This document shows, piece after piece, positions 27,001 through 44,110 of a stretch of 64,000 bases of DNA. Source of the DNA: a plasmid; the sequence record NZ_CP128202.1; one strand, written 5' to 3'. The position numbers were made by a program, and so were the translations under genes. How positions within the stretch are numbered: the first letter of the stretch is position 1; each line of letters begins with the position of its first letter. The notes under the pieces are model-generated. The model was not told the origin of the DNA. It saw only the letters and a list, made by a program, of their open reading frames with translations, and did not search any database.

Positions 27001-27561
27001 TTAACTTAGTTTTTCTTTATAGCCTTTTATCGATGCGGTTATTGGTATTACCCTCTCTTTGATTGGAATCGATTTTAATGGCTCATGAGAATGTTTTGAA
27101 GCAGCAAGCAGATGAAAGTGTGATTTCATCAAATTCTTAACCACGCTTCGATGAGAATAAAGAACATCTTCCATCTCTTCTATCATCTCCAATTCCCATT
27201 CACGAGCATGTTTGAACTGTGCGCGTTTGTATTTACCCTCCCTCGGTGTTGCAATGGCTTTGACTACGCGAATTGTTTTACTCCCACGCTTAACAAATTG
27301 AACCCTAATCCATCGGCATGTGAATGCAATGCCAGTAAATTCCAAACGAAACTCGTAATTCGTTGATTCAGTCCGTCTGCTGGCATCACCTCGACGGCTA
27401 AGCTCTCGCTCCGCCACCTTGCGCATCCAGATTGAATGCACAATCTTAGCTCCCTCGTATTCTCTGTCTATCTGTGCGTATATTGCCGCTTGTATTGCTG
27501 CAAATGACATCTTTAAACGATCTCCATTATGCTTAAAGTTGTTTTCAACAAATTTTACCAT
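27001..27561 (-). CDS. hypothetical basic protein (186 aa; start possibly the downstream Met MSFAAIQ)
   Basis: Intact ORF directly upstream of the truncated helicase stub. A perfect 22-bp palindrome lies in its promoter. No confident family assignment. Confidence 0.4.
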   Translation of the reverse strand: MVKFVENNFKHNGDRLKMSFAAIQAAIYAQIDREYEGAKIVHSIWMRKVAERELSRRGDASRRTESTNYEFRLEFTGIAFTCRWIRVQFVKRGSKTIRVVKAIATPREGKYKRAQFKHAREWELEMIEEMEDVLYSHRSVVKNLMKSHFHLLAASKHSHEPLKSIPIKERVIPITASIKGYKEKLS

Positions 27562-27575
27562 AACAAATGTAGTAA

Positions 27576-27597
27576 CAAAATGTAGTTACATTTTGTA
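27576..27597. promoter_or_regulatory. palindromic operator-like site upstream of the 186-aa gene
   Basis: caaaatgtagttacattttg is a perfect palindrome. A direct half-site aatgtagtaaca lies just upstream. AT-rich promoter context. Confidence 0.4.
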
Positions 27598-27970
27598 CTA
27601 ACAAGTTAAGGACAAAATAGCATGATTTTTTGTATTATAAGTCATAGGCGACCTTCGACTCGCTTGGTCGGATCGCCAGATGGGATGCAATGATCGCCAA
27701 ATCTGGCTTGGTGCTGGTAGTGATAGCTGTCCAAGATGAGGCGTTTTTCTGGTTGGCTACAGAGGTGATGTGTACTGGCAATTTAACATAATTACTTATA
27801 TCTTTGCGATTTTGGAATTATTTTTGATGTGGTAGGATTAATTTAATTCTAATTTATTAATGGATGGATATGTTTATGGAAGGTATAGTTGTGTTGGTTA
27901 TTATGTATTTTTGGATGCGATTTGTTTTTAAACTTATCATTCCTCGCTGTAATTCTTTTAGGAAGTTTAT

Positions 27971-28430
27971 TTGGTATTGTATGCTAGGGATTTTTTAAAA
28001 TTGAGGTGGAACATGAGTAAAATAATTCATATTTTTATTTGTATTTTTGCAGTGGTTGTGAATTTTACAACGGCTTTTGCAAGCACAAATCTTTTGAGTG
28101 ATGATGGTGATAAGTTGTTGGTCGAATCAATTGTGTCATCAACTTTTGGTAACTCGGATAACCTATCATCTATCAGTGACTACAATATTCATAACGCAAA
28201 AATAAAAGCGGCAGAATTTACAGGTGAAGTGAATATGTCGACTCCCGCACTAAGGTTGTGAACGGACGTATTTCTAAGCAACAGGTTAGAGTCATTTCTT
28301 CCAGTTATGTGCGACTCGTCTCATTGGATGAACGCAAAGCGGTAGATGATTTGGGTAATTTTACTCTGACCTCAATTGCTACGTTTGAGTTAAGAAAATC
28401 TGATGTCATGAATCATGATTAAAAGACTTA
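27971..28430 (+). pseudogene. secreted protein, paralog of the N-terminal domain of the 399-aa protein at 34238-35437; frameshifted
   Basis: Signal peptide MSKIIHIFICIFAVVVNFTTAFAS. The frame switches near 28228. The continuing frame reads EYVDSRTKVVNGRISKQQVRVISSSYVRLVSLDERKAVDD, which aligns with TYIESVLQVSNQTITKQQVRVLTAGFLEVLSREDKRSVGA of the 399-aa protein. Confidence 0.45.
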
Positions 28431-28520
28431 AAAATGAGGAAGATTTACTTGATAGAATTCAAAGTTTACAATCAAAAAATGATGAACTTATGTTGATTAT
28501 TGAACGTCTATCGTCTGGTG

Positions 28521-29681
28521 TTAATTTTGCTTTTCTAGCACTACCGGTTCGTACACTGCTTCTTCTACCGCTTGGTTTTCTGTTTCACCAAGATCGAAGC
28601 TGAAATCGTCATCGCTGAACGCGAAGTCTGATTCTGGCTCTTCACTGGTTTCAATCGCCGTCTGTTCAGCCGAGAGAACCGCATCACTGGTCACAGTGGT
28701 TTGGTCATCAATGGTTGAATCCCCAAGATCGAAGCTGAAATCATCATCGTTGAACGCGAAGTCTGATTCTGGCTCTTTCATTGGTTCCAACGGTCCCGCA
28801 TTCTGAGGTTCGGATTGAACGCTCGCCATTGCAGGTTGATTGGTTGATGCTTCTTGCAGACTCTTCATGAGAGTGAGCAATTTTTCCTTATTTGCCATAC
28901 GAAACAGTAATCCAGACAGGATGTTGGTTTCGTCAGTGGACAGCTTACCCGCAATCGGCATTTGCTCTTCGACCTTTTTGATTTCCTGAACAAGTCGAGA
29001 AAATCGGCCATTGAGAAACGCTAACCCTTCCACCTTTTCTCGCAATCCGACTAGGCCGTTTACGTTGGTGCGGTTGGGTGCAATCGCGTCTGTTAAGCTG
29101 GATAAAAGCTTATTCGCAGTTTTCAAAATGTCGTCATCAAGAGAATTGCTTAAACCATCGATCTCTTTGCCCATGCTGATGTCCACAGACTGAACCGCAG
29201 CTTGAGCCGATTGCACTTTGAACATTGAGTAGCTTGCTGAGATTTTGCTTTTGACTTCTTGTGCCGGTGTTAATGCGGCGCGAAGTTTTTGCTCATACTC
29301 AGGATACTTTTTAACCCATTCATCTTGGATTAAATCGTGTCGAGAACAATACGCGTCAGCTTCTTTTTCGTAGTCATGAACAATTTTGCTCAATCCTAAC
29401 GCCAAAGCATCGGCCTTGGAGGACGGTATCGCATAGCCACCCATAAATCGGATGCCTACACTCAGACACAAACGCTCCGCTTGACGTTTCAGGGTATTAA
29501 ATACCTTGAGGTCTTTGGGGTCAGTTGTGTATTTCGAACCTAAAGAGATGATCTCTTTCGGCGGGGTTTCCCCACGAAGAGATAAGTCGCTTTCTGCCAA
29601 CTTTTTCCGACCTGTCCAGGTTGAAAAACGTAAGTGAACGGCGACGACATCGTTTAGAACGTTGATGTTTGAATTGCTCAT
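28521..29681 (-). CDS. hypothetical protein with C-terminal tandem acidic repeats (386 aa)
   Basis: No signal peptide. Helical N-terminal two-thirds. C-terminus has two copies of EPESDFAF[NS]DDDFSFDLG separated by a T/S/Q linker. Last gene of the CobS-like ATPase cluster. Confidence 0.55.
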   Translation of the reverse strand: MSNSNINVLNDVVAVHLRFSTWTGRKKLAESDLSLRGETPPKEIISLGSKYTTDPKDLKVFNTLKRQAERLCLSVGIRFMGGYAIPSSKADALALGLSKIVHDYEKEADAYCSRHDLIQDEWVKKYPEYEQKLRAALTPAQEVKSKISASYSMFKVQSAQAAVQSVDISMGKEIDGLSNSLDDDILKTANKLLSSLTDAIAPNRTNVNGLVGLREKVEGLAFLNGRFSRLVQEIKKVEEQMPIAGKLSTDETNILSGLLFRMANKEKLLTLMKSLQEASTNQPAMASVQSEPQNAGPLEPMKEPESDFAFNDDDFSFDLGDSTIDDQTTVTSDAVLSAEQTAIETSEEPESDFAFSDDDFSFDLGETENQAVEEAVYEPVVLEKQN

Positions 29682-29825
29682 AATGGTATCTCCAATTTTT
29701 GATATAAAAAAAAGGACATACCATTACCCGCTAGGGCAAATGATATGCCCTATGGCGGTGTAGAAATGTAGATAAGTCGCGCTAAACGCTAGGACTTATC
29801 TTTCTTTTTCAGTGCTTTTTTGCGA

Positions 29826-29936
29826 GTTGTCTGTCGCACCAAGCGTTGATTTGAGGGGAATAAAGAGCCACTAAACTGACTATTAATCCACCAGCGATAA
29901 TCACAAATAAACCATTCATGATGATCTCCTTGTTTA
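29826..29936 (-). CDS. tiny single-TM peptide (36 aa)
   Basis: MNGLFVIIAGGLIVSLVALYSPQINAWCDRQLAKKH with a strong RBS (aggagatcatcATG). Not in the supplied ORF track, which only lists ORFs of 60 aa or more. Confidence 0.3.
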
Positions 29937-29952
29937 TGTTCTATGCCAAATA

Positions 29953-30198
29953 TTACTCTTGTTTTAACTTTTTCGCAAAAACAGTGAATACAATACCTGA
30001 CACGATTAGAGCGGCCATCTTCACATCGATACCCGTTTGGATCGCATAGACGTAGGAGCCAGTGTAACCAGCTATGCCTAAATTCCCCACATGAGTACCA
30101 ATTTCCTTCCGATGGCAAATTATCCAACCTGAACATTTCTTGATTTGTGCAACAAACCAAAGATAGGCAATCACATAATCGAACATGTATAACTCCAT
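29953..30198 (-). CDS. small two-TM membrane protein (81 aa)
   Basis: Hydrophobic segments FDYVIAYLWFVAQI and MAALIVSGIVFTVFA. Lies between the ATPase gene and the acidic-repeat gene. Confidence 0.4.
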   Translation of the reverse strand: MELYMFDYVIAYLWFVAQIKKCSGWIICHRKEIGTHVGNLGIAGYTGSYVYAIQTGIDVKMAALIVSGIVFTVFAKKLKQE

Positions 30199-30256
30199 AA
30201 ATTATTATGGAGTACCTACCCACACGGGATAGATACCCCGCGTGGGTTAAAGCTGC

Positions 30257-31210
30257 TTAGTTGTTGTTAAAATCAGCACCAAACAACGCTACAGCTAATG
30301 TTTGAATAGTTTCACGTTCTTCTTCTTCCGAGCAGCGGTTTAACAATGCACGATCAAGCGCGTAGCTTAATGCATTGTTTGCTCCTTGGAATCGTTGAGT
30401 GAGTATCGCCCAACGAATTAACGTGCGAGTTGAAAAGGTGATCGATAATTCTGAGTCACCTTGCTCCCCTTTGAAGATAGCGCGAACCTTATTAGCCAGC
30501 TCAATCATCTTCTTACGCAGCACTTTAGGAATGTTCGGTGCCAGTTTTTCCAGTACCGCCATTTCCGTATCTTCGCTGGCGTAATCTTCTTTGATCACCA
30601 CAAAGCGGTCCATGAACGCCATGTTTAGGCGGTTCACTCCCATGTAGTTGCCGTCACCACCAGATCCGTTTGAGTTCGATGTTGCAATCAAACGAAATGC
30701 GGGGTGAGGTCGTACAATTTCGCCGTTAAGCTGAGTGATCACGAGTGGCGCACCTTCCAAAATGGCATTCAGGTTTGCCAATTCCGCCGGATCAACCAAG
30801 TCGATCTCGTTCAGAATCAGTACATGCCCTCCGCGCATCGCAGTCGTCAGTACGCCATCCATCCAGACAGTATTGCCGTTCACTAATGTGTATTGGCCCA
30901 CTAAGTCCATGTACTCAGTCGAACCGCCACATGTATAGCTTTGGGCTGGATAATTTAATCTGGCTAGTACCTGCTCAACCGCTGACGTTTTACCGCAGCC
31001 GGTTGGACCGGTGATCATCAAGCCATCGCCAAATGAGCAATCCAAAAACGCCACGATGTCGCGTAACGTTTCCCGACGAAAGATGTAGTCTTTCTTGGCC
31101 GGAATATTTGGATGTCCACTTGGTGCAAAACCTTCAACCGTAACGTTTGTGCCAGGAAAACCGAACACATCCATTGGGTAGCTTTGCGGAGTTAGAGTTA
31201 GAGTAGTCAT
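30257..31210 (-). CDS. CobS-like AAA+ ATPase (MoxR/AAA_5 group)
   Basis: 317 aa. Walker A GPTGCGKT, Walker B VLILNEID, and the CobS-family segment IVRPHPAFRLIATSNSNGSGGDGNYMGVNRLNMAFMDRF (compare cobaltochelatase CobS VIRPHPAFRLFATANTVGLGD, recalled from memory). No vWA (CobT-like) gene is adjacent. Confidence 0.85.
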   Translation of the reverse strand: MTTLTLTPQSYPMDVFGFPGTNVTVEGFAPSGHPNIPAKKDYIFRRETLRDIVAFLDCSFGDGLMITGPTGCGKTSAVEQVLARLNYPAQSYTCGGSTEYMDLVGQYTLVNGNTVWMDGVLTTAMRGGHVLILNEIDLVDPAELANLNAILEGAPLVITQLNGEIVRPHPAFRLIATSNSNGSGGDGNYMGVNRLNMAFMDRFVVIKEDYASEDTEMAVLEKLAPNIPKVLRKKMIELANKVRAIFKGEQGDSELSITFSTRTLIRWAILTQRFQGANNALSYALDRALLNRCSEEEERETIQTLAVALFGADFNNN

Positions 31211-31266
31211 AATGTTGTCCTTAATTAATCAATAAAAAAGGCAACTTACGACTCCCCTAGTGGGCA

Positions 31267-32500
31267 AGGGCGGGATCGAACTTTAACCACTGAAAATAAA
31301 AGACTTTATTTTATTGGGAACTTTTCAAGGTAATCACGATCTGATCATGAAGTTAAAAATATGAGAAACTCGTGCATGATTATCATTGAGCAGCTAAAAA
31401 AAGTGAAAGATACCCGTTCGCATATCAACCAAGTGTATCCTGTTATGGAAGTGGCTTTCTTGGTCATAACCGCCATGATTTGTGGTCAAAATAAGTGGAC
31501 TGATATTAAGGATTTCGGCGAAGGAAATATCGAGTGGTTGCGTGAGTATCTCCCCTACGACAATGGTCTCCCCACTCGGCATAATATTGCCGCGATAATG
31601 AGAACTGTTGTACCAGAGACGCTCTTGGAAGCGATGGTAGGCTGGGTCAATTTGCACAGAGAAAAGCATGCTCAGCCCATAATCAGCGTTGATGGGAAGG
31701 TTCTAAAAGGAGCGAAAGCAAGCAAACAAGAACACCCTCTCTATATGGTTTCGGCATTTGACGTAGATGAAGGTTTGACTCTCACACATCAACCTTGTGA
31801 CGGTAAAGGTATGGAGCTAATAGCGATAAAAAACATGCTCGACGCTTTGGATGTCAGAGGGTGCTTATTAACTGCTGATGCGCTTCATTGTCAGGTTGAA
31901 ACACTGAATAAAGTGGTTGATAAAGGTGGTGATTTCTTAGTGCAAGTCAAACTGAATCAGCCAAGTTTGTTAGCAGAGATTGATGCGCAGTTCCAAGACT
32001 ATTGGGCTTTGCCAGAAGAACAACAGGAATCGTATATCACTGAAGATAAAGGGCATGGAAGAGAAGAGATTCGTGAGGTTTACGTGCTTCCTGCCTCCTT
32101 CAGCGAAGAACTCAAAGATAAGTGGAGTGTTGTAAAAAGCATTGTTGCGGTGGTAAGAGATAGAAGCGTCAAAGGGAAAGGAAGCTATGAAACATCGTAC
32201 TACATTTGCACAGACCATTTGTCTTTAGAGTTAGCCTCAAACGCAACAAGGAAACACTGGAACATCGAGAACCAGCAGCACTGGGCTTTGGACGTTATTT
32301 TCAAAGAAGACGAGCAGCGAATTTACGCTGGGGACTCAGCATTGAATATGGCTTGTTGTCACCGATTTGTGCAGAACCTCTTCAGGAAGTCAGAAGGGAG
32401 CGTGTCTGTACCAAGGAAGATGAATAAGGCTACGTGGGACAAAGATTATAGAGCAAAAGTTCTCTTTACATCAGCTTAACAAAGTACGTTCGCGCCCTTC
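31267..32500 (+). mobile_element. ISAs1-family insertion sequence
   Basis: 1234 bp. Imperfect IRs aagggcgggatcgaac and gttcgcgcccttc. 9-bp target duplication CTAGTGGGC at 31258-31266 and 32501-32509. It sits inside one of the conserved intergenic hairpin repeats between the exonuclease and ATPase genes. Confidence 0.85.
31361..32479 (+). CDS. ISAs1-family (H-repeat-type) transposase
   Basis: 372 aa. N-terminal KVKDTRSH...GEGNIEWLREYLPYDNGLPTRHNI and a DDE region typical of the ISAs1 family. Confidence 0.9.
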   Translation: MRNSCMIIIEQLKKVKDTRSHINQVYPVMEVAFLVITAMICGQNKWTDIKDFGEGNIEWLREYLPYDNGLPTRHNIAAIMRTVVPETLLEAMVGWVNLHREKHAQPIISVDGKVLKGAKASKQEHPLYMVSAFDVDEGLTLTHQPCDGKGMELIAIKNMLDALDVRGCLLTADALHCQVETLNKVVDKGGDFLVQVKLNQPSLLAEIDAQFQDYWALPEEQQESYITEDKGHGREEIREVYVLPASFSEELKDKWSVVKSIVAVVRDRSVKGKGSYETSYYICTDHLSLELASNATRKHWNIENQQHWALDVIFKEDEQRIYAGDSALNMACCHRFVQNLFRKSEGSVSVPRKMNKATWDKDYRAKVLFTSA

Positions 32501-32576
32501 CTAGTGGGCAGCTTTCAGTTGCCCGATAGGGTTGATATTCATTGAATTAGTCAATCGCTCGACTAATTCCCTCTTC

Positions 32577-33809
32577 TTAAAAATGCATGTTTCGTACAGA
32601 TTTTTCGAAGAAATTACTTGGTGACGTTGGGGTAGCGATCATTGGAATGACCTTGGCGGTTTCTGTCGGCTCAGGCTCAGTTTTCGGTTGAGTCTCTTCC
32701 GGCATTAACGCGCTTGGCGATTTCACCGTCATCACGTTTAACGATTCGGCTTGCACCGGTTCCGTTGAGTGTTCAGGTTGAACGTTCGCATTGTCGCTGG
32801 TTTGAACAGTCGGTGTGATGGTTTCTGGCTCATCAGTTACATTGACTAAGTAGTAAGACGACCCTTTCTTCGTGTGCTTAGCTAGTAACTCTGGTGGTAT
32901 CGCCACATTGAGATCCTTCGCCAGCTCATTAAGAACCGCTTGGTAGTCCACACTGCCATTTCGTTCCACTCGCGTAGCCCGAATACCACCTTTATCGAAT
33001 GTTTTGACATCACTAGGGATTTGCTCAGTGAAGTAACTTTCAAGCTGATTCACATCGGCCTTGACCGCATTCATTTTGCGTTCAATCTCACCTAGATACG
33101 CTTTTTTCTCTTTCAGTTGCTCCACTCGGCTTAGCCAGGTTGGATCAACTTGAGAAAGTGGCGTGTCGTACACAACGGTATCGCGGCCTTCCATCATTGG
33201 CGGTGGCGTCTTAGTTTGCACCAAGTTCCAGAACCACAATGCTTTTTGTTCCGCTTTTTGGATAAACGCATCGTCACGTTTAATGTTTACCGCAATTGAA
33301 CGTTTACCGCGCAAGTAAAAAAACAAACGACCTTGAGGGCTTCCGGCGCAGTTAAGTTGCCACTGCACTTGGGCAGCGTACATCTTGAACGTTGGCGCTT
33401 TGGATTGAAGTTCAACAAGTTCGTTGTAGATCTTTTCACAAGGACATTTGATTTCGAGCACTTCCCGAATGCCTTTAGAGATGGCTTGTAGGCCATCCAA
33501 AGACGCTTTGAACAGTGGATTATGGTCTGCTTCTACGCACACTGGCATATACACAATGCCGTATTGATCTTCCACGGCGCTTCGCGCTTCCGGCTCTTGC
33601 TCGACACCACGTTGAACGTGAAAGTTTTTAGACAGGTCATCTGGTTGTTTATAACCGACTAACTCTGCCCACAGTCCGTATGGGGTTTGATAAGGTGACA
33701 GGCCCATAATCACAGGGATCATGGAGGCTGTAATGCCCGTTTTCCGCCACGCAAACCATTTTTCACTACGTTGTACTAAGTCAACAATAGGCATAAGTGC
33801 CTCCTTCAT
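32577..33809 (-). CDS. YqaJ-type viral recombinase-domain exonuclease (lambda-Exo-like) with C-terminal extension
   Basis: N-terminal 300 aa carry the YqaJ pattern (RSEKWFAWRKTGITASMIPVIMGLSPYQTPYGLW ... ASLDGLQ ... EIKCP). An additional low-complexity C-terminal tail of about 100 aa. Confidence 0.8.
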   Translation of the reverse strand: MKEALMPIVDLVQRSEKWFAWRKTGITASMIPVIMGLSPYQTPYGLWAELVGYKQPDDLSKNFHVQRGVEQEPEARSAVEDQYGIVYMPVCVEADHNPLFKASLDGLQAISKGIREVLEIKCPCEKIYNELVELQSKAPTFKMYAAQVQWQLNCAGSPQGRLFFYLRGKRSIAVNIKRDDAFIQKAEQKALWFWNLVQTKTPPPMMEGRDTVVYDTPLSQVDPTWLSRVEQLKEKKAYLGEIERKMNAVKADVNQLESYFTEQIPSDVKTFDKGGIRATRVERNGSVDYQAVLNELAKDLNVAIPPELLAKHTKKGSSYYLVNVTDEPETITPTVQTSDNANVQPEHSTEPVQAESLNVMTVKSPSALMPEETQPKTEPEPTETAKVIPMIATPTSPSNFFEKSVRNMHF

Positions 33810-33825
33810 ATTGTGTTCAATAAAA

Positions 33826-33867
33826 AGGGCGCACTATCCCCTACGGGCAGTGTCGCCCGTTAGGGTA
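33826..33867. repeat. exemplar of a conserved intergenic hairpin-repeat family in the 28-42 kb island
   Basis: atcccctacgggcagtgtcgcccgttagggta. Related copies at 29718-29755 (tacccgctagggcaaatgatatgccctatggcgg), 30217-30250 (tacccacacgggatagataccccgcgtgggtta), 31250-31266 plus 32501-32540 (split by ISAs1: ctcccctagtgggc / agctttcagttgcccgataggg), 41199-41236 (tacccctacgggctttgtgtcccgtttgggg) and 41712-41748 (ggcccgtaagggatagtttatccccgttgggc). Confidence 0.6.
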
Positions 33868-33891
33868 GATGGATAATTAGGGTACTTTCCT

Positions 33892-34245
33892 TTATAGAGA
33901 AACGGTCACGCAGTATTCACGCGAGCCATTGTGGTTCTGGTAATCCGAGCTCACCGTTTTTAATTGCGCCACTGTGTGCTGACTGCTCAACGTCACCTGT
34001 TCGGTGAGAACATCTTGGGTTTGGGCTTGGCCCTTGCCTTCGGTTGTGATGCTTTTCAGTTCCGTTCTGGCATTCACGGTGGCCCCAAGCTCATGAGAGA
34101 GTTGCCCCTTTGCCAATGCCTTTGCGGTGATTTCATCAACCACCGGATTGCCAGTGTCCGGCACACAGGCTGAGCCGGTGATCGTCTTTGAGGCCGCGAA
34201 CTCACTCACCACCAGTAAGCTGACCAACAACAGATATTTATTCAT
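33892..34245 (-). CDS. small secreted protein (117 aa from MNKYLL)
   Basis: Signal peptide MNKYLLLVSLLVVSEFAAS. Its ATG overlaps the stop of the upstream gene (tATGAATAA), indicating translational coupling. Confidence 0.5.
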   Translation of the reverse strand: MNKYLLLVSLLVVSEFAASKTITGSACVPDTGNPVVDEITAKALAKGQLSHELGATVNARTELKSITTEGKGQAQTQDVLTEQVTLSSQHTVAQLKTVSSDYQNHNGSREYCVTVSL

Positions 34246-35437
34246 ATTTCCACTCGCTCGATTCTTTTTCCGGCACCACCACCACACGCGCATCCAGTGA
34301 ACTGATGCCCTGCAGTTCCGCTTGAGTCACGTTCTTGATGATGACCGGATTGCGATAACGGGAACGATGGTCAGCATCTAACATGCGGTTATCTTTGGAG
34401 TCATTGGAGAATTGAAGCGCGAAGTTGCTCCCTGCGAAGAAATCGCTTCGGCCACTGATTGGCAAATACCCCACTTTGTTCGCCGCTTTAATCTCAATAG
34501 CGACTGTATGACCGGACAGGTAATCCAGCAATTCGCCGCTGTAGGGCTTTAATTGTTTATTGCCACGGTTATTGTACGAAGGGAACTCAATGGTGTAGGG
34601 CGGTGCATGTCGGTCTTTCTCTTTCAGTACCAGATAATTCGACATGACGCTGCGCACCGGTTTCATCGGGACATTCCAACGCACCGGAACGTGAATGTTG
34701 TACGTTCCGTCAGTGTTCTTTTTGAACTCTGGATTGCCAAGCGAAATCTTTGTTTGGGTTTTTAAGTAGCCAAATACATCTCGGTTCACGGCCTCTTTCG
34801 CCAGGTCGTAGTCTTGTCCATCCAGCATCGCCAGTTGGAAAAGAGTACCCTGCTCGAACACTTTCTTTGTGGCCGCACGATTGCTATCGAGCTTTGCCAA
34901 CACCGCGTCACGCTCAGCCAGCAAATCCGTTCGTGCGCCCTCGTTAATCTTGCGGGTTAACTCAAGCACTTCGCCGCGCAGACGTTGATTGTCTTTCTCA
35001 AGTGCGTCCATCTTGGCCTTGCGTTCTGGATCGCTTTTCAGCTTTGCCAACCCATCACGAATGGACGCTTTGGACAGCTTTATTTTAGCGTAGGTATCGA
35101 GCACGAGACTGCCATTGGCTCCTACTGAACGCTTATCTTCACGGCTTAACACCTCAAGAAACCCTGCCGTTAACACGCGCACTTGTTGTTTGGTGATGGT
35201 TTGGTTTGACACCTGCAGCACCGATTCAATGTAGGTTCCGGCGTAGTCGGAAGCCGATTTCTTGGCTTGCTCTAGCGTGATTTCTCTGGCACTGGTTAAT
35301 GTGTCGTTATCACCAAGCACATAACGTTCCGTCACGTTCAGCGTGATGTGGTCCTGATTCTCGGAATCCAGCGATACGGCGGCATGAGTAGAGAAAGACA
35401 GCCCAACCAGTAGGGCCAGTAATGTTCGATTCATCAT
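34238..35437 (-). CDS. secreted coiled-coil protein (399 aa)
   Basis: Signal peptide MMNRTLLALLVGLSFSTHAAVS. Central coiled-coil (KAKMDALEKDNQRLRGEVLELTRK). Its N-terminal domain is paralogous to 27971-28430. Confidence 0.6.
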   Translation of the reverse strand: MMNRTLLALLVGLSFSTHAAVSLDSENQDHITLNVTERYVLGDNDTLTSAREITLEQAKKSASDYAGTYIESVLQVSNQTITKQQVRVLTAGFLEVLSREDKRSVGANGSLVLDTYAKIKLSKASIRDGLAKLKSDPERKAKMDALEKDNQRLRGEVLELTRKINEGARTDLLAERDAVLAKLDSNRAATKKVFEQGTLFQLAMLDGQDYDLAKEAVNRDVFGYLKTQTKISLGNPEFKKNTDGTYNIHVPVRWNVPMKPVRSVMSNYLVLKEKDRHAPPYTIEFPSYNNRGNKQLKPYSGELLDYLSGHTVAIEIKAANKVGYLPISGRSDFFAGSNFALQFSNDSKDNRMLDADHRSRYRNPVIIKNVTQAELQGISSLDARVVVVPEKESSEWKYE

Positions 35438-35448
35438 TTCGTCCTTTG

Positions 35449-35832
35449 TTAGTCAGCCCGAAACCAGTGAGAATCCAACCCCATGCTGGCGCACGCGGTA
35501 CAAATCAACTCGTTTCCGTTGTTCGTGATGATTATCTCCAAATCTGGCCGGACAACGCCGACGATATCTCGGTTACGCATCGTGACCACGATTTTGTTCC
35601 CCCTGACCAGAAACGGCTTATCCATGCTGCCAAATTTGCTTGAGAGTGTTGCGGTATCGTGAGTGAATTGAAGCGTAGCGTTTTGTTTCGACTCAGAGTA
35701 TTTGCCCTTGATAAATTCTTTATTGAAGATGTCTGACACATCAGCAGGAGGATAATGAGCGGTATCAGAATCACACCCTGATACCGCCAATGCGCTCACC
35801 AAACACCATTTACTCAGGCTTGATGAACTCAT
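35449..35832 (-). CDS. small lipoprotein (about 127 aa, start at MSSSSLSKWCLVSALAVSGC)
   Basis: Lipobox LAVSGC. Overlaps the end of the upstream gene. The supplied ORF 35449-35985 starts earlier, in a region shared with the 295-aa gene. Confidence 0.5.
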   Translation of the reverse strand: MSSSSLSKWCLVSALAVSGCDSDTAHYPPADVSDIFNKEFIKGKYSESKQNATLQFTHDTATLSSKFGSMDKPFLVRGNKIVVTMRNRDIVGVVRPDLEIIITNNGNELICTACASMGLDSHWFRAD

Positions 35833-36697
35833 ATTTTTTGCCTTGCGTGTAAATAGCGGGTAAGACTTCCGCATAGTCGGTATATATTTTATTGTCGTAT
35901 TCAGTTTGAGGCATTGATGATGTGTAGACATAAAACCCTTTGGGTAAATGCTGAGTAATGCCTGTATAGAATTCCGTAGTATCAATATTCTTGCCGCTCT
36001 CGACCGTGAATATTAAATGCGTTGGGATCATTATTAATCTATCTTTTATAGTGGATTTTTTCACCCCATAGGTATAATAGCTTCCCGCATTTCCCTCTAG
36101 CGATTGGTCGGTTTTAGTTAGCACCCCCTCCTTGGGCGTATTTATTTGAAAGCCCCCCATAAGGTAGTCCACTCCACCATGATTGAGGTAAAAAAGCTTG
36201 CCTCGCTCTCCCACGGGTTGCAATTTCACTTCCCCATATTTGCTTAATGCTTCAAGTGTCGCGGCATTGATTGTATCGATGATGTATTGCTGCGCATCCA
36301 GTTCCGAAGAAAACGGGGTAGCGTCTACTTCAATGATCCACTCTGTAGCGCCAGCAGCGTGATCGCGGCTGGCAATGTTGGCGACTGCCCCCCCTGCTAT
36401 ATCAATCGCACCCGTGAGATCCAGTGTCAGGAGTTTTAAGCCTCCAATTAACAAAGAGGGATTACCGCCACTTCTTGATCGGCCTACGGCTTGAGTAATT
36501 TCGGCTTCCTCTTCTCTGGTGAAGTCGCGGAGTGGGCTATCATTGCGCATCAGGATAGTTTGATTGGCTACGTTATAGGCGTAACTGTGTTCGTTGCTGA
36601 ATGGCATCGGTTCAACAGGCTTTGGGGTCGATTTACAACCCACTAAGGTCAAACCTAATCCAGCGGCAATTAAAATGGGTTTTATGTATCCTTTCAT
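35810..36697 (-). CDS. lipoprotein (295 aa)
   Basis: MKGYIKPILIAAGLGLTLVGC is a signal peptide plus lipobox. No recognisable domain. Confidence 0.6.
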   Translation of the reverse strand: MKGYIKPILIAAGLGLTLVGCKSTPKPVEPMPFSNEHSYAYNVANQTILMRNDSPLRDFTREEEAEITQAVGRSRSGGNPSLLIGGLKLLTLDLTGAIDIAGGAVANIASRDHAAGATEWIIEVDATPFSSELDAQQYIIDTINAATLEALSKYGEVKLQPVGERGKLFYLNHGGVDYLMGGFQINTPKEGVLTKTDQSLEGNAGSYYTYGVKKSTIKDRLIMIPTHLIFTVESGKNIDTTEFYTGITQHLPKGFYVYTSSMPQTEYDNKIYTDYAEVLPAIYTQGKKYEFIKPE

Positions 36698-36763
36698 TTT
36701 CTCGTTCTCATTTTTTGCTGATATAACACTACGGTATCACCGATTATTTTTTTCCAAAATGCA

Positions 36764-39700
36764 TCATTGGCTGCGACTCCACGCATCCTCATACGCATCG
36801 CGGCGAACTTCGTCAGCATCGATATTTTCCATACGCTCTCGATTGGCCTCTAGGACATTATTTCTGTCTGTTCCGCCTTGCTGAGTGTTCAAATTGGACC
36901 CTTTGCCCGTGAGGGAATCAATATTCACATTCACCATGTCGGTGTAATTCCCCGTACTGATGAGTATGCCAATCCATTCATCCAGATTCACTTCATCCCA
37001 ATCGACTTTATCCAAATCTTGAATACCGACACCTGTGCAGTTCGGTTTTTTCGCGGTTCCCCAATTTAAATTCATCTGTGACTGAGCATAAATTTGCTCC
37101 ATCATGATACGAGATAATGGAGAATCAAATACGCAGTAAGACTGGCGTTTTTCAATACAGGAACCAAGCACCTCTGTCTTACAATAGGAGCCAATTTTAT
37201 GCGTCGATAACAGCTCTCGTTTCATAGCTAAATCCAGCTCTTCCTCTTCGCATTCGTAGATAACATTGACCAGCAAATTAAACACGACATACGCCAGATA
37301 TGCGTAATACACATACATCAAGGCTTGTCCGGCGGCGGCCATTTCAGCACTTGCACCAAGAACCGCTTCACCAGCCGCACTTGTACCCACTTCTTGGAAA
37401 AACATTTTCGCTACCTCTGGACCAAAGGTGTCTATCAAAAACTGGTTGGTGTATTGCATCATTTGTTGTGCCACTGCGCTCATGAGGCCCTTGTTTGCAC
37501 CATCTGTTCCCATTTGCGCCACAATATCCGCCGGTGATATAAATTCACCTTGTACCGCCGACCAAGCAGATTGAGCCGTGGCACTTCCCCACGTTGATGC
37601 GGTTTCCCACACACCAGGATAGTTTTCCAACCCCATGACCTGACCCGTTAGCGCATCCATCTGCATCATTTTGGTCGTGAGCGAAATGTAATCAGCAAGC
37701 GTGACCGCTACAGGGGATTCACAGCAATTCTGCATCCCCCCCACCGCAATTTTGCATTCGGACGCAGTACCTTTGAAGAGTTCGCACGTAACGTTGGTAT
37801 CTCCCCCGCTACTGGTTGTGACCGACGAGGTGGACATGGTACTCATTGACATCGGCTGAGCAGTAGAACTTGCTGACGCAAGGCCCATGAGCTGCTGTCT
37901 GCCCACTGTCGTCAACGCAATGTTGTTCTGTTGTTCTTCAGCCATAGAAAGGAATTGCTCGGCCACGTACTGTTGCATCGTTTCTTGCGTCAGTTTGGCT
38001 TCCTCTGACCCCTGCAACTCGCTGCTTGCGTTCGCTTTGGGAATTAACGTATCCAGCATGTGCTCGAACGGCGAAAGAACCATTGCAATCACTTCTTGTG
38101 TTTGGGTCGGGTTTAGTGGTTCATTGTTCAATTCGAACTGTGATCGAACATTAGCCAACGGGGAAATACTACTGGATTCGCAACGGTTTTCTTCTGCATT
38201 CCAAATAGGGTAACTTGTAGGACAGCTAATGCTAGCTGGTTCTTCGCGTATGCAACGTCCAGTTGTAGCATTGTAATATGTACCTTCCTCGCTACACACC
38301 CATTCAGGAGGACTAACAGAGCCAGCTTTGCACTTACCAGTAGCACTATCATAAGAGCCTATCGCGCACACTGGATCCTTTGTAGTGTTGACATTAGTAC
38401 AAATCTCATAGGTATAGTTCCAATCTTGAGTCATAATACACCAGCCAGCAAAATGGCCAGTTCCATTATAATTACTTAACGTTCCTCTGCCTCTATTTAT
38501 GATATTTGAGCTAGGACCCCAACTAGAGTAATTTAACGTTCTACCGCAACCAGCACTACTACCAGAGTAATATTTCCACTGTTCTCGTTGTTTACCTCTC
38601 CAAAACGCACCACTACCTAAATAAGCGTTGCTTGGTTTAATCGTCGCTGGATCATCACCACAAAAATCATAGTAAGTGTTGTGGCAAAGACCATCGAGAA
38701 CCCTCGTTTCAGTCCTTGGTGTATTAAGCCCTGAATGCTCACCATTACTAATGACAAAGGCATCTTTATCGAAATAACAACCTTCCTTAATACCTACACA
38801 TTGCCCATTACTAAGTGTTAAACCACTGTCGCATTGAGCATCCGTATATGTAATACCGTTGCAAAGCCCAGTTGCAGCATCGTAAGTTTCATTTGCATTA
38901 TTGCATTTGGGTACTGCCGGAATATCAAGCAAACACTTATCATCCAAAACACTCCAAGGATCACCACCTTCAATCAACGGCACACCTTCAGGACACGTTG
39001 GTGTCGGCGGTATTTCACAATACCCCGTCTTGGGATTGAGCGTGTGATCAGGACTTGGGCAACCACTCGGAATGACTGGTGATTCTGCATTGGTACAGAC
39101 CTCATAAAAGGTATCAGTCGCCAGTTTTTTCTTTGCCTCACCACATGTATAAGTCACCCCATTTTTCTTCACGGGTATGCAGGTAGGAACGCTGGCATCA
39201 TCCACCACCACTTGATTTCCCACCAGCACTTGAATGCCATTGCGCGAGCTCGCGGCATAAAAATCGTTGTCAGAATAGGTACAGCCTGTTGGTTTCAAAC
39301 ATTGGTTAGTTTGTTTGTTGTAAACGAACCCGTCAGCACAACTTGGAACGGGAATGTATTGGTCCGGCGGTGCATCTGCATCGTATGGGGATTCGGGAAT
39401 GCCTTGGCAGGTCATGTCAGCTTTTGCGTATTTCAGCATTTCCAGATAGGCATTCACTTTGCCAAAATCTTCATTCGCGCCATCACGCGCAGGGCTGTAA
39501 CAATTCTCGCCAACACACTGAAGTTTGCCGTTACAGCGCAATACCTGCTCTTCTTTCGGCTGTCCCGTTGAAGCCGTGAAGCCACAATCGTAGGTGTCTT
39601 CTTGGACATAACAGTGGCCGGAGCTGCCTTCGGCCCCTTCCACACACTCACTCTTGATATAAGAACACGTAGGGTTCTCTTCGTATTTTTTACACTGATT

Positions 39701-41185
39701 GCGATCTACTGTGTCATTATCAAAACAGCGCTCTACCCCATTGAGATCCTTTGAGCAAAATTGGCCTTCGTTAAACCCACAGTTGGAAGTCACTTCCACT
39801 TTTCGACAAAACGGACTGATGCCTAAACTAGCAAATGGGTTCGATTTGAAATTAGACTCACAGACTTTCACCCCGTTCATCACCGTACAACCGGCTGCAT
39901 CAAGGCTTGGCATGTCGGTACACTGAAACGAGCCGGTACAGTAACCGTCATCGATCTGTTTTTTTACTTGGAAAGCTTTGTCGATGTTTTCTTGCGTTGT
40001 CCAATTGTCACCGTACACGAGATCGTTCATGTTGTAGTACACCAACAAAGAGGAATAGCCTTCCCCTTCCCCCGCTACAGAGGTGCGAGTTTTAAACGTT
40101 ATCTCACCATATTCAGGCACACTGGTGAATGAACTGGTGACGTTAATGTTAGGTCGGGTGTCCCAGGAAGTGCTTAACTCACATTTCGTCCCGACTTCGG
40201 GCGGAAATTCACCGTTCGGGCCGTTGTAGATTTTCACCCCGTTCAAATACACTTGGTGATAATCATCGAACTTCGAGCGATCCAGAACGGCATAAGTAAT
40301 TTTATCCGGCTTCAACACTTCAACGGACATGCTCTCTTCATAAATCGTACACCAGCCTGGCCAGTAATTGTTGCCTACTGTGCCGATCCAAACCTGTGTG
40401 CAGCCATTTCCGCAAGAAACAAGGTTCACCGGACCGCTTTTATGTCTCAAAATGCCGACTTTGTATTCGTGGCTGATGGTAAATGTCTCTTCGACAACCG
40501 GTAGTTTTTCGCACGTTTCGTATTTCGGCACATGGTAATCCTTGCCTGACGAAATGAGCTCAGTCGTGAGTGTGCAGTTGGCAAAGTCTTTGGTAATGTC
40601 GGTGAGGTTGTCGAGTACCTGATCGGTGTTCTTCCACATCGGATCGTTGCTTAAATCCGGCTTTTGAGTAGCAAAAGACCTCTTCAGTAGATGATAAGCT
40701 CGTTCACCGCTTGAATCGGCGGTTTCGAGTGTCTTTTGTTCGTATTTATCTTTCGCTAACTGGCCTTGGATAAGGGTTTTGGAATCACTGCCATAGGTGT
40801 CGGTATCAGCGGGGATGTAATCATTGTCGCGCTGACCCGTGAGCTCCTGTTTCGTCATAATGGCTTTGCCATTGACCATCAGCGAACCATCTGACGAAAA
40901 GGTTGGATTAGAGTGTGCGTTTTTGACAGGTTGTTTAACCTGTGTTTTTTGCACGTTTGCATTGGGTTGTTTCGCCAAAACCTTAAAGGTGAAGCGAATC
41001 AAGCAGAACGCAAGATAGGCAACCAACGAAACCGTTGCCAGTAGGATAAATGCTGCCACCATCCGAGCTGGATTCTCTGCTTGGTAAGCAACAAAGGCAC
41101 CAATAAAACACAAAGCAAAAACCGTGAAGTTTTTGAATGATGTTTTTGGTAGAAGTGTTGATAGGGTTTGAGTTGAAGTGTTCAT
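36764..41185 (-). CDS. giant cysteine-rich membrane-anchored protein with a TraN-like C-terminal region (1473 aa)
   Basis: Two N-terminal TM helices, then more than 1000 aa rich in Cys/Gly/Asn/Thr. The C-terminal segment KIGSYCKTEVLGSCIEKRQSYCVFDSPLSRIMMEQIYAQSQMNLNWGTAKKPNCTGVGIQDLDKVDWDEVNLDEW resembles the conserved C-terminus of F-type TraN mating-pair stabilisation proteins (recalled from memory, not checked). Confidence 0.5.
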   Translation of the reverse strand: MNTSTQTLSTLLPKTSFKNFTVFALCFIGAFVAYQAENPARMVAAFILLATVSLVAYLAFCLIRFTFKVLAKQPNANVQKTQVKQPVKNAHSNPTFSSDGSLMVNGKAIMTKQELTGQRDNDYIPADTDTYGSDSKTLIQGQLAKDKYEQKTLETADSSGERAYHLLKRSFATQKPDLSNDPMWKNTDQVLDNLTDITKDFANCTLTTELISSGKDYHVPKYETCEKLPVVEETFTISHEYKVGILRHKSGPVNLVSCGNGCTQVWIGTVGNNYWPGWCTIYEESMSVEVLKPDKITYAVLDRSKFDDYHQVYLNGVKIYNGPNGEFPPEVGTKCELSTSWDTRPNINVTSSFTSVPEYGEITFKTRTSVAGEGEGYSSLLVYYNMNDLVYGDNWTTQENIDKAFQVKKQIDDGYCTGSFQCTDMPSLDAAGCTVMNGVKVCESNFKSNPFASLGISPFCRKVEVTSNCGFNEGQFCSKDLNGVERCFDNDTVDRNQCKKYEENPTCSYIKSECVEGAEGSSGHCYVQEDTYDCGFTASTGQPKEEQVLRCNGKLQCVGENCYSPARDGANEDFGKVNAYLEMLKYAKADMTCQGIPESPYDADAPPDQYIPVPSCADGFVYNKQTNQCLKPTGCTYSDNDFYAASSRNGIQVLVGNQVVVDDASVPTCIPVKKNGVTYTCGEAKKKLATDTFYEVCTNAESPVIPSGCPSPDHTLNPKTGYCEIPPTPTCPEGVPLIEGGDPWSVLDDKCLLDIPAVPKCNNANETYDAATGLCNGITYTDAQCDSGLTLSNGQCVGIKEGCYFDKDAFVISNGEHSGLNTPRTETRVLDGLCHNTYYDFCGDDPATIKPSNAYLGSGAFWRGKQREQWKYYSGSSAGCGRTLNYSSWGPSSNIINRGRGTLSNYNGTGHFAGWCIMTQDWNYTYEICTNVNTTKDPVCAIGSYDSATGKCKAGSVSPPEWVCSEEGTYYNATTGRCIREEPASISCPTSYPIWNAEENRCESSSISPLANVRSQFELNNEPLNPTQTQEVIAMVLSPFEHMLDTLIPKANASSELQGSEEAKLTQETMQQYVAEQFLSMAEEQQNNIALTTVGRQQLMGLASASSTAQPMSMSTMSTSSVTTSSGGDTNVTCELFKGTASECKIAVGGMQNCCESPVAVTLADYISLTTKMMQMDALTGQVMGLENYPGVWETASTWGSATAQSAWSAVQGEFISPADIVAQMGTDGANKGLMSAVAQQMMQYTNQFLIDTFGPEVAKMFFQEVGTSAAGEAVLGASAEMAAAGQALMYVYYAYLAYVVFNLLVNVIYECEEEELDLAMKRELLSTHKIGSYCKTEVLGSCIEKRQSYCVFDSPLSRIMMEQIYAQSQMNLNWGTAKKPNCTGVGIQDLDKVDWDEVNLDEWIGILISTGNYTDMVNVNIDSLTGKGSNLNTQQGGTDRNNVLEANRERMENIDADEVRRDAYEDAWSRSQ

Positions 41186-41279
41186 AATGTGTCTCCATTA
41201 GACAAAAAAATGGGACACATTACCCCTACGGGCTTTGTGTCCCGTTTGGGGTTTGAATTAATATCGACCTATTTATCTA

Positions 41280-44096: not shown

Positions 44097-44110
44097 GGGT
44101 TAATGTTTTC

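What the first reader, a model, noticed from the sequence alone, without database searches (positions are those of the whole stretch)
33892..41185. Tightly coupled operon: giant Cys-rich TraN-like protein plus four uncharacterised exported proteins, with no type IV secretion genes nearby
Five co-directional genes run from 41185 down to 33892. They are the 1473-aa cysteine-rich membrane-anchored protein, a 295-aa lipoprotein, a lipoprotein of about 127 aa, a 399-aa coiled-coil secreted protein and a 117-aa secreted protein. Overlapping stop and start codons (for example tATGAATAA at 34238-34245) imply a single translationally coupled unit. Only the C-terminal 120 aa or so of the large protein resembles the conserved C-terminus of TraN mating-pair stabilisation proteins. 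It is much larger than F TraN (about 600 aa) and has two N-terminal TM helices instead of a signal peptide. None of the expected partners (traF, traH, traG, traU, traW, trbC) are in the window. The four downstream exported proteins match nothing I recognise. This could be a decayed conjugation locus whose TraN-like adhesin and accessory exported proteins were kept for another surface function such as adhesion, aggregation or envelope interaction. It could equally be a distinct, undescribed surface module.
Basis: partly seen in the sequence, partly recalled or inferred. Interest (0 to 1): 0.7.

Follow-up and report, generated by a model that had tools for sequence, protein, structure and literature searches.

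The report
Relic conjugation genes: chimeric TraN plus Sfx
This block is a leftover piece of a conjugative plasmid's transfer region sitting in a non-conjugative Vibrio furnissii plasmid: a mating adhesin gene (traN) that lost its export signal through a gene fusion, its neighbouring surface-exclusion lipoprotein gene, and three exported proteins of unknown function.

Summary
The five co-directional ORFs and their overlaps are real. They are not a free-standing surface module. In V. fluvialis pIDH5335-2, in V. cholerae and V. parahaemolyticus contigs and in two assemblies of public read sets, the same gene order follows traC-trhF-traW-traU-SLT inside complete or partial MOBH/MPF-F transfer regions.

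The 1473-aa ORF is an in-frame chimera. Residues 1-93 come from an unrelated 155-aa two-TM protein. The rest is TraN from residue 57, joined at a 5-bp microhomology, so the native signal peptide is gone. TraN similarity spans most of the protein (NCBIfam TraN equivalog, 729 bits), not only the C-terminus.

The 295-aa lipoprotein is a divergent homolog of Sfx, the IncC surface-exclusion lipoprotein (hhalign 99%, E 2.5e-18). The 127-, 399- and 117-aa proteins have no detectable relatives of known function. The 399- and 117-aa genes belong to a Vibrionaceae triad whose third gene, an LPP20-like lipoprotein, was lost here.

The window has no other T4SS genes. A deletion junction removed traFHG.

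Verdict: a decayed conjugation locus. The Sfx-like gene is the only plausibly active part. It is a new member of known kinds, of modest interest.

The parts
40907..41185 (-). Codons 1-93 of the chimeric ORF. This is the 5' part of an unrelated gene for a 155-aa protein with two hydrophobic segments (WP_102137166 / WP_004729597 in relatives).
   Evidence: Residues 1-93 are identical to the N-terminus of the separate 155-aa protein of pIDH5335-2 (L004:1706-2173) and of the FDAARGOS_777 plasmid. DNA matches run to 40908 for the 155-aa gene and from 40912 for traN, so the junction lies in the shared TCTAA.
36764..40906 (-). traN lacking its first 56 codons (signal peptide and start of the mature protein), fused in frame to the segment above.
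   Evidence: Pfam PF06986 scores 122.9 bits and NCBIfam NF011458 scores 729.5 bits against a cut-off of 603. Intact alleles (pIDH5335-2, L015-L017, L019/L020; 1395-1436 aa) all begin ML...IAYAQ, whereas the window and pVFBJ05 carry the fusion.
38213..38985 (-). Hypervariable centre of TraN (about residues 727-1010, 18 Cys in short Cys-bracketed repeats). It is probably the receptor-recognition region.
   Evidence: Identity is 23-44% between the window, pVFBJ05, pIDH5335-2 and V. cholerae alleles, while the flanking TraN parts are 91-100% identical. blastn cannot align this stretch.
35810..36697 (-). sfx-like gene: a 295-aa outer-membrane-type lipoprotein that is a divergent homolog of the IncC surface-exclusion factor Sfx.
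   Evidence: Lipobox LVGC. BLASTP to IncC Sfx gives 25% identity over the full length, E 7e-6. hhalign family against family gives 99.0%, E 2.5e-18, over 261 columns. A profile search of 1.84 billion representatives recovers Sfx94-family members at E 7e-7 to 7e-4. Eight of 28 family members hit IncC sfx by tblastn, best E 2.6e-13. The gene is adjacent to traN, as in most IncA/C-like plasmids (PMC11493245).
35449..35832 (-). 127-aa lipoprotein (lipobox VSGC) of unknown function. It overlaps the end of sfx-like by 23 nt.
   Evidence: Translation. It is conserved after sfx-like in L001, L002, L008, L015, L017 and L019/L020 and absent from L016. No Pfam, NCBIfam, PADLOC or PHROG hit.
34238..35437 (-). 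399-aa secreted protein. The model shows an N-terminal alpha/beta domain, a coiled-coil hairpin of about 100 residues and a C-terminal beta domain. Function unknown.
33892..34245 (-). 117-aa secreted protein with two invariant Cys. Its start overlaps the stop of the 399-aa gene (ATGAATAA).
   Evidence: It always follows the 399-aa gene in relatives.
33883..33894 (.). Junction 2. The relic traN block ends directly after the 117-aa stop codon and joins sequence upstream of the YqaJ gene. The LPP20-like lipoprotein gene (about 200 aa) that follows in all relatives is missing.
   Evidence: The L002 match begins at 33894 and the L004 match ends at 33883.
27001..33809 (-). Rest of the relic backbone: YqaJ exonuclease (32577-33809), an ISAs1-family insertion (31361-32479, + strand), an AAA/CbbQ ATPase (30257-31210), a DUF3150 protein (28521-29681), a truncated paralog of the 399-aa gene (28013-28531, + strand) and mobI (27001-27561).
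   Evidence: Pfam hits. Identity to pIDH5335-2 is 99.9%, with a junction at window 28527 that skips 26.5 kb containing traG, traH and traF.

Best explanation
The block is a relic of the transfer region of an IncA/C-like (MOBH relaxase, MPF-F pilus) Vibrio conjugative plasmid. It is now stranded in a Rep3/ParAB plasmid of Vibrio furnissii that has no conjugation machinery.

Shown:
- In intact relatives the order is traC-trhF-traW-traU-SLT-hyp-hyp-traN-sfx-like-127-399-117-LPP20-like.
- In the window only traN to the 117-aa gene survive.
- traN lost its first 56 codons and was joined in frame, at a 5-bp microhomology, to the first 93 codons of an unrelated small membrane-protein gene.
- The 295-aa lipoprotein belongs to the Sfx surface-exclusion family.

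Inferred:
- The chimeric TraN is inert as an adhesin. It has no cleavable signal peptide, and the lysine/arginine-rich segment after the second hydrophobic helix should hold the Cys-rich TraN part in the cytoplasm.
- The Sfx-like lipoprotein is the one part likely to still work. Sfx acts in the recipient, on its own, without any T4SS. It sits in the outer membrane and lowers mating-pair stabilisation by donors whose TraN belongs to its specificity group. The host of this plasmid would therefore partly exclude related conjugative plasmids.
- The 127-, 399- and 117-aa proteins are an incomplete copy of an uncharacterised envelope module that travels with sfx-like. Without its LPP20-like lipoprotein partner it may no longer function.
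For: Synteny with transfer genes:
- pIDH5335-2 carries a complete MOBH/MPF-F set.
- L015, L016 and L017 show the same order, as do V. cholerae L019/L020.

Chimera:
- The protein alignment shows the fusion. The 155-aa donor protein is, and the DNA junction with TCTAA is.
- All intact alleles start with ML...IAYAQ.
- The same fusion is present in pVFBJ05.

TraN identity: Pfam, NCBIfam equivalog above its cut-off, IncC TraN at 39% identity.

Sfx homology. Sfx biology comes from PMC11493245:
- It is a 286-aa outer-membrane lipoprotein, sufficient on its own in recipients and expressed constitutively.
- Its specificity is set by the donor's TraN.
- It is usually adjacent to traN, and orphan sfx genes occur on mobilizable islands that lack traN.

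Topology inference: hydropathy and charge counts (6 K/R and 0 D/E after the second hydrophobic segment).

Loss of other tra genes and deletion junctions.

The LPP20-like gene is present in all relatives and absent here.
Against: - No experiment or dedicated predictor supports the topology call. The first hydrophobic segment is marginal.
- All five ORFs are intact in two copies (window and pVFBJ05) that differ by a recombination tract of about 3 kb. This is compatible with some selection on the whole block, not only on sfx-like.
- The sfx-like protein is only 25% identical to the tested Sfx94, so exclusion activity is inferred from homology and position.
- In IncC, sfx is divergently oriented and has its own constitutive promoter. 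Here it is co-directional, 66 nt after traN, and the consensus scan found no promoter-like site in that gap or the adjoining 3' end of traN.
- The V. cholerae plasmids carry the same sfx-like allele (98%) with a different TraN centre (44%). A simple one-to-one match between the TraN centre and Sfx is therefore not seen.
Confidence: 0.8

Rival explanations
1. Pure debris. The whole block, sfx-like included, is a recent and unselected remnant that does nothing for the plasmid or its host. The ORFs are intact only because the rearrangements are young and because recombination with intact plasmids keeps refreshing them.
For: - The flanks are 99-100% identical to pIDH5335-2 and pVFBJ05, which points to recent events.
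- The module is truncated at both ends.
- The plasmid is full of IS and Tn3 fragments.
- The sfx allele and the TraN-centre allele are combined differently than in the V. cholerae plasmids.
Against: - Orphan sfx genes without traN are functional on mobilizable islands (PMC11493245).
- A V. aestuarianus island carries the sfx-like-97-399-118-203 set without traN, so the set is kept apart from the T4SS.
- No frameshift or stop has accumulated in 7.3 kb in either copy.
Confidence: 0.25
2. The giant TraN-like protein was retained as a membrane-anchored adhesin and, with the four exported proteins, forms a surface module for adhesion or aggregation that is independent of conjugation.
For: - The ORF is intact and Cys-rich, and it starts with two hydrophobic segments.
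- There are no T4SS partners in the window.
- The same fusion occurs in two plasmids.
Against: - The N-terminus is borrowed from an unrelated gene by a microhomology junction.
- The charge distribution places the TraN part in the cytoplasm, where its 60 cysteines could not form disulfides.
- The 'giant' size (1395-1436 aa) is normal for intact TraN of this plasmid family.
- The neighbour is a surface-exclusion factor, not an adhesin partner.
Confidence: 0.05
3. The four small exported proteins are donor-side accessory components of the MPF-F mating apparatus (for example pilus or mating-junction factors). They are useless here without the T4SS.
For: They are conserved directly after traN, in the same orientation, in six replicons or contigs that carry transfer genes upstream, at 38-100% identity.
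Against: - The 399-117-LPP20-like triad occurs on Photobacterium proteolyticum and V. hannami chromosomes with no tra genes.
- It also lies away from traN in the pAQU-type plasmid pVAS19 and on a traN-less island.
- The 295-aa member belongs to a recipient-side exclusion family.
- The 127-aa gene is missing from L016.
Confidence: 0.1

Closest known systems
TraN of IncA/C-like (ACL) plasmids and SXT/R391 elements (NCBIfam NF011458 / PRK14876; Pfam PF06986), the mating-pair stabilisation adhesin
   Same: - It scores above the equivalog cut-off.
- It is 39% identical to IncC TraN over the N-terminal and C-terminal conserved parts.
- It is Cys-rich.
- In intact relatives it has a Sec signal peptide and follows traC-trhF-traW-traU.
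   Different: - Intact family members are about 1400 aa, against 935 aa in IncC, because of an expanded centre that includes a hypervariable stretch of about 280 aa.
- The window copy is a 5'-truncated in-frame fusion without a signal peptide.
Sfx (vcrx085) of IncC plasmid pVCR94, the surface-exclusion outer-membrane lipoprotein (Rivard et al. 2024, PMC11493245)
   Same: - Lipoprotein signal with a lipobox, and similar length (295 vs 286 aa).
- Full-length collinear homology, including the HS.AYN.A motif near the N-terminus and the QGK..F..PE C-terminus.
- The gene lies next to traN.
- Orphan copies occur on a traN-less island.
   Different: - It is only about 25% identical, and the published Sfx dataset does not list the accessions of its pVFBJ05 and pIDH5335-2 orthologs or any V. 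fluvialis entry; the window's own accession (WP_286282543) was not searched for. That dataset's most distant members are 45% identical, plus SfxAQU1 at 39%.
- It is co-directional with traN and heads a tightly packed four- or five-gene string instead of standing alone beside acaB.
- Exclusion activity is untested.
Orphan exclusion genes on mobilizable islands (IEAveTha1-like and IEVchAut1-like IMEs; PMC11493245)
   Same: An element without its own mating apparatus carries sfx, and here also mobI. The proposed purpose is to limit entry of related conjugative plasmids.
   Different: Here the carrier is a replicating Rep3 plasmid. It acquired the gene as part of a decayed transfer region, with a dead traN still attached, rather than as an integrated island.
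LPP20-family lipoproteins (Pfam PF02169)
   Same: The lipoprotein of about 200 aa that completes the 399-117 triad in relatives gives weak LPP20 matches. NCBI names the pVAS19 copy 'LPP20 family lipoprotein'.
   Different: All matches are below Pfam's gathering score (best 21 bits against 25.9). That gene is absent from the window.

Membership tests
TraN (F-type T4SS mating-pair stabilisation protein) | Match to the family models above curated thresholds | tested here: met
   PF06986 scores 122.9 bits against 23. NF011458 equivalog scores 729.5 bits against 603.
TraN (F-type T4SS mating-pair stabilisation protein) | Sec signal peptide allowing export to the outer membrane | tested here: not met
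   The window copy starts with 93 residues of an unrelated two-TM protein. Intact alleles start ML...IAYAQ. There was no dedicated predictor, so the judgement rests on sequence comparison and charge counts.
TraN (F-type T4SS mating-pair stabilisation protein) | Encoded within an MPF-F gene set (traC, traW, traU, traF, traH, traG and others) | tested here: not met
   No tra gene of pIDH5335-2 has a tblastn match in the window. The feature is met on the other replicons and contigs.
TraN (F-type T4SS mating-pair stabilisation protein) | Stabilises mating pairs by binding a recipient outer-membrane receptor | not testable with these tools
   This needs mating assays.
Sfx surface-exclusion lipoprotein | Sequence homology to Sfx94 and its family | tested here: met
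   hhalign gives 99.0%, E 2.5e-18, over 261 columns. hmmsearch over the whole library recovers Sfx94-family members at E 7e-7 to 7e-4. Pairwise BLASTP gives E 7e-6.
Sfx surface-exclusion lipoprotein | Lipoprotein signal peptide (Sec/SPII) with a lipobox cysteine | tested here: met
   The sequence MKGYIKPILIAAGLGLTLVGC has G20 and C21 invariant across the family. This was read by eye, with no SignalP.
Sfx surface-exclusion lipoprotein | Gene adjacent to traN in ACL-type plasmids | tested here: met
   It starts 66 nt downstream of traN here and holds the same position on seven other replicons or contigs: pVFBJ05, pIDH5335-2, L015, L016, L017, L019 and L020.
Sfx surface-exclusion lipoprotein | Expression in recipients reduces entry of plasmids carrying the cognate TraN | not testable with these tools
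   This needs exclusion-index assays like those in PMC11493245.
Sfx surface-exclusion lipoprotein | Own constitutive promoter, transcribed independently of the tra operons | tested here: inconclusive
   The consensus scan found no sigma-70-like site in the 66-nt gap or the adjoining 3' end of traN. The scan is crude.
IncA/C-like (MOBH/MPF-F) conjugative plasmid | MOBH relaxase, TraD coupling protein and a full MPF-F set | tested here: not met
   Only mobI, a dead traN and backbone genes remain. PLSDB types the near-identical pVFBJ05 as non-mobilizable.
LPP20 lipoprotein family (for the triad's third gene) | Pfam PF02169 above the gathering score | tested here: not met
   The best score is 21 bits against 25.9 in relatives. 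The gene is absent from the window.

The most novel reading that the evidence does not exclude
In this Vibrio plasmid family, surface exclusion is not a one-gene function. The sfx-like lipoprotein works together with the co-transcribed 127-aa lipoprotein, the 399-aa coiled-coil protein, the 117-aa protein and the LPP20-like lipoprotein. Together they would form a multi-protein envelope complex, built around a chromosomal 399-117-LPP20-like triad that plasmids recruited. The hypervariable TraN centre and the variable Sfx would mark an ongoing arms race in which even dead relics keep swapping alleles with incoming plasmids.
Probability: 0.15. Interest if true: 0.55.

Novelty: new member of a known kind. 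Interest (0 to 1): 0.3.

Why it matters
The apparent oddity, a giant TraN with TM helices and no T4SS, resolves into ordinary plasmid decay. That outcome is useful in itself.

Three smaller points have some value:
- The Sfx surface-exclusion family, described in 2024, extends to a much more divergent Vibrio clade at about 25% identity. That clade has at least 58 representatives at the 50% identity level (E below 1e-30) and was missed by BLAST-based surveys.
- These plasmids carry TraN proteins of about 1400 aa with a centre that differs almost completely between otherwise 98-100% identical alleles. This makes them a natural panel for mapping recipient specificity.
- A non-conjugative plasmid keeping an exclusion gene, and a conserved exported triad of unknown function riding with it, suggest further recipient-side barriers to plasmid spread in pathogenic vibrios.

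Tried and rejected
- **My early idea that the triad is a FlgT/FlgO/FlgP-like set.** Profiles of the 399-aa and LPP20-like families against PDB sequences found nothing. hhalign between the three small families showed no shared domain.
- **Other libraries.** PADLOC and PHROGs gave no hits for any small protein. NCBIfam gave none for the four small proteins.
- **Strict co-variation of the TraN centre and Sfx alleles.** This is rejected. The V. cholerae plasmids share the window's Sfx allele (98%) but not its TraN centre (44%). The Spearman correlation printed is confounded by shared ancestry, and I do not use it.
- **The idea that the relic excludes plasmids of its own incompatibility group.** The window's Rep, ParA and ParB are only 26-32% identical to those of pIDH5335-2.
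- **Whether sfxAQU1 lies next to the triad in pAQU-type plasmids.** No Sfx-family hit was found in the pVAS19 region I fetched.
- **Scan of species-representative genomes.** It returned only 3 loci, so the distribution figures rest mainly on the protein-cluster searches.

Full report
**1. Observation**

ORF listing confirms five co-directional minus-strand ORFs:
- 36764-41185 (1473 aa)
- 35810-36697 (295 aa)
- 35449-35832 (127 aa)
- 34238-35437 (399 aa)
- 33892-34245 (117 aa)

The ATGAATAA overlap at 34238-34245 is real. The 295- and 127-aa genes overlap by 23 nt, and 11 nt separate the 127- and 399-aa genes. traN and the 295-aa gene are 66 nt apart. The translations show lipoboxes (LVGC, VSGC) and signal peptides.

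Pfam gives F_T4SS_TraN for the large ORF (122.9 bits) and nothing for the other four.

**2. What the window is**

Pfam scans of all ORFs of at least 120 aa show a Rep3 initiator, ParA/ParB, a Phd/RelE pair, resolvases and many IS and Tn3 fragments. Cargo includes a GGDEF-EAL protein, an MCP, transporters and a glutamate dehydrogenase. An exact protein look-up identifies the source as a Vibrio furnissii plasmid, where the TraN ORF is WJG29250.1.

Downstream of the five genes, on the same strand, lie:
- a YqaJ exonuclease
- an ISAs1-family insertion on the opposite strand
- an AAA/CbbQ ATPase
- a DUF3150 protein
- mobI

These are backbone genes of IncA/C-like and SXT-like elements.

**3. The block is a fragment of a conjugative plasmid**

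Megablast against plasmids finds the block in V. furnissii pVFBJ05 and in V. fluvialis pIDH5335-2. In pIDH5335-2 it follows mobH-traD-traLEKBVA-traC-S26 peptidase-traW-traU-SLT-hyp-hyp, and traF, traH, traG and mobI lie elsewhere on the plasmid. That plasmid therefore carries a complete MOBH/MPF-F set.

The same order (traC-trhF-traW-traU-SLT-hyp-hyp-traN of 1424-1436 aa, then genes of about 290, 130, 400, 120 and 200 aa, then DUF2726) recurs in:
- two assemblies of public read sets (L015, L016)
- a V. parahaemolyticus contig (L017)
- two V. cholerae contigs (L019, L020)

Protein identities to the window range from 38% to 100%.

tblastn with every tra protein of pIDH5335-2 finds none of them in the window. 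The only matches among the queries used in that search are mobI (70%) and a truncated paralog of the 399-aa gene.

Megablast shows that window 27191-41815 is a patchwork of pIDH5335-2 segments. A junction at 28527 skips 26.5 kb that holds traG, traH and traF.

**4. The 1473-aa ORF is a chimera**

Residues 1-93 are identical to the N-terminus of a separate 155-aa protein. That protein is encoded upstream of the YqaJ gene in pIDH5335-2 and in the V. furnissii FDAARGOS_777 plasmid, which has no traN block at all. From residue 94 the ORF is TraN of pIDH5335-2 starting at its residue 57.

The DNA alignment places the junction in a shared TCTAA. All intact alleles begin ML...IAYAQ, a normal signal peptide. 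Only the window and pVFBJ05 carry the fusion. The arithmetic fits: 93 + (1436 - 56) = 1473.

After the second hydrophobic segment come 30 residues with 6 K/R and no D/E. By the positive-inside rule the TraN part should stay in the cytoplasm. This is an inference, because no dedicated predictor was available.

A second junction lies directly after the 117-aa stop codon. It removes the lipoprotein gene of about 200 aa that follows in every relative.

**5. TraN itself**

Similarity is not confined to the C-terminus. NCBIfam's TraN equivalog NF011458 scores 729.5 bits against a cut-off of 603 and aligns residues 99-596 plus the C-terminal part. IncC TraN aligns at 39% identity over 52% of the protein, in two pieces.

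The extra length is a central expansion. Within it, residues of about 727-1010 (18 Cys) are only 23-44% identical among four alleles whose flanks are 91-100% identical.

By analogy with the TraN-receptor pairs of F-like plasmids (listed in PMC11733297), this is probably the receptor-recognition region. That is an inference.

**6. The 295-aa lipoprotein is an Sfx homolog**

Rivard et al. (PMC11493245) showed the following for Sfx (vcrx085):
- It is a 286-aa lipoprotein found in the outer membrane.
- It is usually encoded next to traN.
- It is necessary and sufficient in recipients for IncC surface exclusion.
- It is expressed constitutively.
- Its specificity is set by the donor's TraN.
- Orphan sfx genes occur on mobilizable islands that lack traN.

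I took Sfx from IncC plasmid pNDM-US-2. The evidence for homology is:
- BLASTP to the window protein gives a full-length collinear alignment, 25% identity, E 7e-6.
- hhalign of the 295-aa family (28 sequences) against Sfx94 alone gives 97.5%.
- hhalign against an Sfx family alignment (27 sequences) gives 99.0%, E 2.5e-18, over 261 columns.
- A profile of the 295-aa family searched against 1.84 billion representatives recovers Sfx94-family members at whole-library E-values of 7e-7 to 7e-4.
- Eight of the 28 family members hit the IncC sfx gene by tblastn, best E 2.6e-13.

The published Sfx dataset does not list the accessions of the pVFBJ05 and pIDH5335-2 orthologs or any V. fluvialis entry; I did not search it for the window's own accession (WP_286282543). 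The sfx-like gene is itself variable: 40-53% identity among the window, pVFBJ05 and pIDH5335-2, while its three downstream neighbours are 96-100% identical.

blastn shows that the window and pVFBJ05 differ by one divergent tract of about 3 kb (35886-38922). It covers sfx-like, the TraN C-terminal part and the TraN centre, between flanks that are 99% identical. Relic copies have therefore recombined with other alleles since the fusion.

Co-variation of the TraN centre and Sfx is not strict. The V. cholerae plasmids share the window's Sfx allele (98%) but not its TraN centre (44%).

**7. The other three proteins**

The 399-aa family has about 45 clusters. Every member that carries an organism name is from Vibrio or Photobacterium, and the family has no Pfam domain.

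It is always followed by the protein of about 117 aa, which has two invariant Cys. Everywhere except the relic plasmids (the window and pVFBJ05), a lipoprotein of about 200 aa with sub-threshold LPP20 matches comes next.

This triad also occurs without any T4SS:
- on the Photobacterium proteolyticum chromosome
- on the V. hannami chromosome
- on a V. aestuarianus island, together with sfx-like
- beside topoisomerase III in the pAQU-type plasmid pVAS19

A 25%-identical paralog sits next to mobI in pIDH5335-2 and FDAARGOS_777.

The AlphaFold2 model of the 399-aa protein (pLDDT 76.5) shows an N-terminal alpha/beta domain, a long helical hairpin and a C-terminal beta domain. I found no significant structural or sequence relative of known function. 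Its function remains unknown.

**8. Conclusion**

The finding is a decayed piece of a known kind of conjugation system. The TraN chimera is most likely inert. The Sfx-like lipoprotein is the one component that could still act, because Sfx works alone in recipients.

The three remaining genes are an incomplete copy of an uncharacterised envelope module that travels with sfx-like in this plasmid family. What is new is limited to three things: a divergent Sfx clade, an expanded and hypervariable TraN, and the unexplained triad.

Noticed in passing
window 28013-28531 (+), junction at 28527: A truncated paralog of the 399-aa gene (first 183 of 387 residues, 61% identical to the pIDH5335-2 copy beside mobI) ends at a deletion junction. 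In pIDH5335-2 that junction corresponds to 26.5 kb including traG, traH and traF.
   Followed up: partly
window 27001-27561 (-): mobI is only about 70% identical to the pIDH5335-2 mobI, while the adjacent backbone genes (DUF3150, AAA ATPase, YqaJ) are 99-100% identical. The relic is therefore mosaic. If an oriT survives next to mobI, the plasmid might still be mobilised in trans, although PLSDB types its close relative pVFBJ05 as non-mobilizable.
   Followed up: no
window 31267-32499 (transposase ORF 31361-32479, +): An ISAs1-family (DDE_Tnp_1) element is inserted between the AAA ATPase and YqaJ genes of the relic. The YqaJ gene has different lengths in related plasmids (365 aa in the FDAARGOS_777 plasmid against 410 aa as the window's ORF).
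   Followed up: no
L005 5996-7248 and L004 453-1705: In plasmids that lack the traN block there is a stretch of about 1.25 kb with no annotated gene between the 155-aa gene and the YqaJ gene. In the window this stretch, together with the 3' part of the 155-aa gene, was replaced by the 7-kb traN block. It may hold pseudogenes such as ssb or bet remnants.
   Followed up: no
window 21330-26269 (-): The plasmid carries signalling cargo: a 1097-aa GAF-PAS-GGDEF-EAL protein and a PAS-domain methyl-accepting chemotaxis protein. Both are shared with pVFBJ05 and the FDAARGOS_777 plasmid.
   Followed up: no
window 16969-19949 and 58244-61175 (-): Two Tn3-family transposase genes are each split into two overlapping ORFs, which suggests frameshifted pseudogenes. 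At least four IS5-family copies (5675-6595, 41893-42813, 54388-55308, 63280 onward) could drive further rearrangements.
   Followed up: no
L009 10001-12163; L010 and L011 8800-12152: The 399-117-LPP20-like triad sits on the chromosomes of Photobacterium proteolyticum (ordinary metabolic neighbours) and V. hannami (an island with integrases), without any conjugation genes. The V. hannami copy is preceded by two different small proteins (189 and 167 aa) in place of sfx-like and the 127-aa gene.
   Followed up: partly
L015 11553-11933, L017 12819-13229, L020 12821-13593: Some intact plasmids carry one or two extra small ORFs (about 125-136 aa) between the 117-aa gene and the LPP20-like gene, so the module's content varies.
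   Followed up: no
window 43851-44413 (+): A Phd/YefM-RelE/ParE toxin-antitoxin pair lies next to the Rep3 replication region. The annotation comes from the equivalent genes in pVFBJ05.
   Followed up: no
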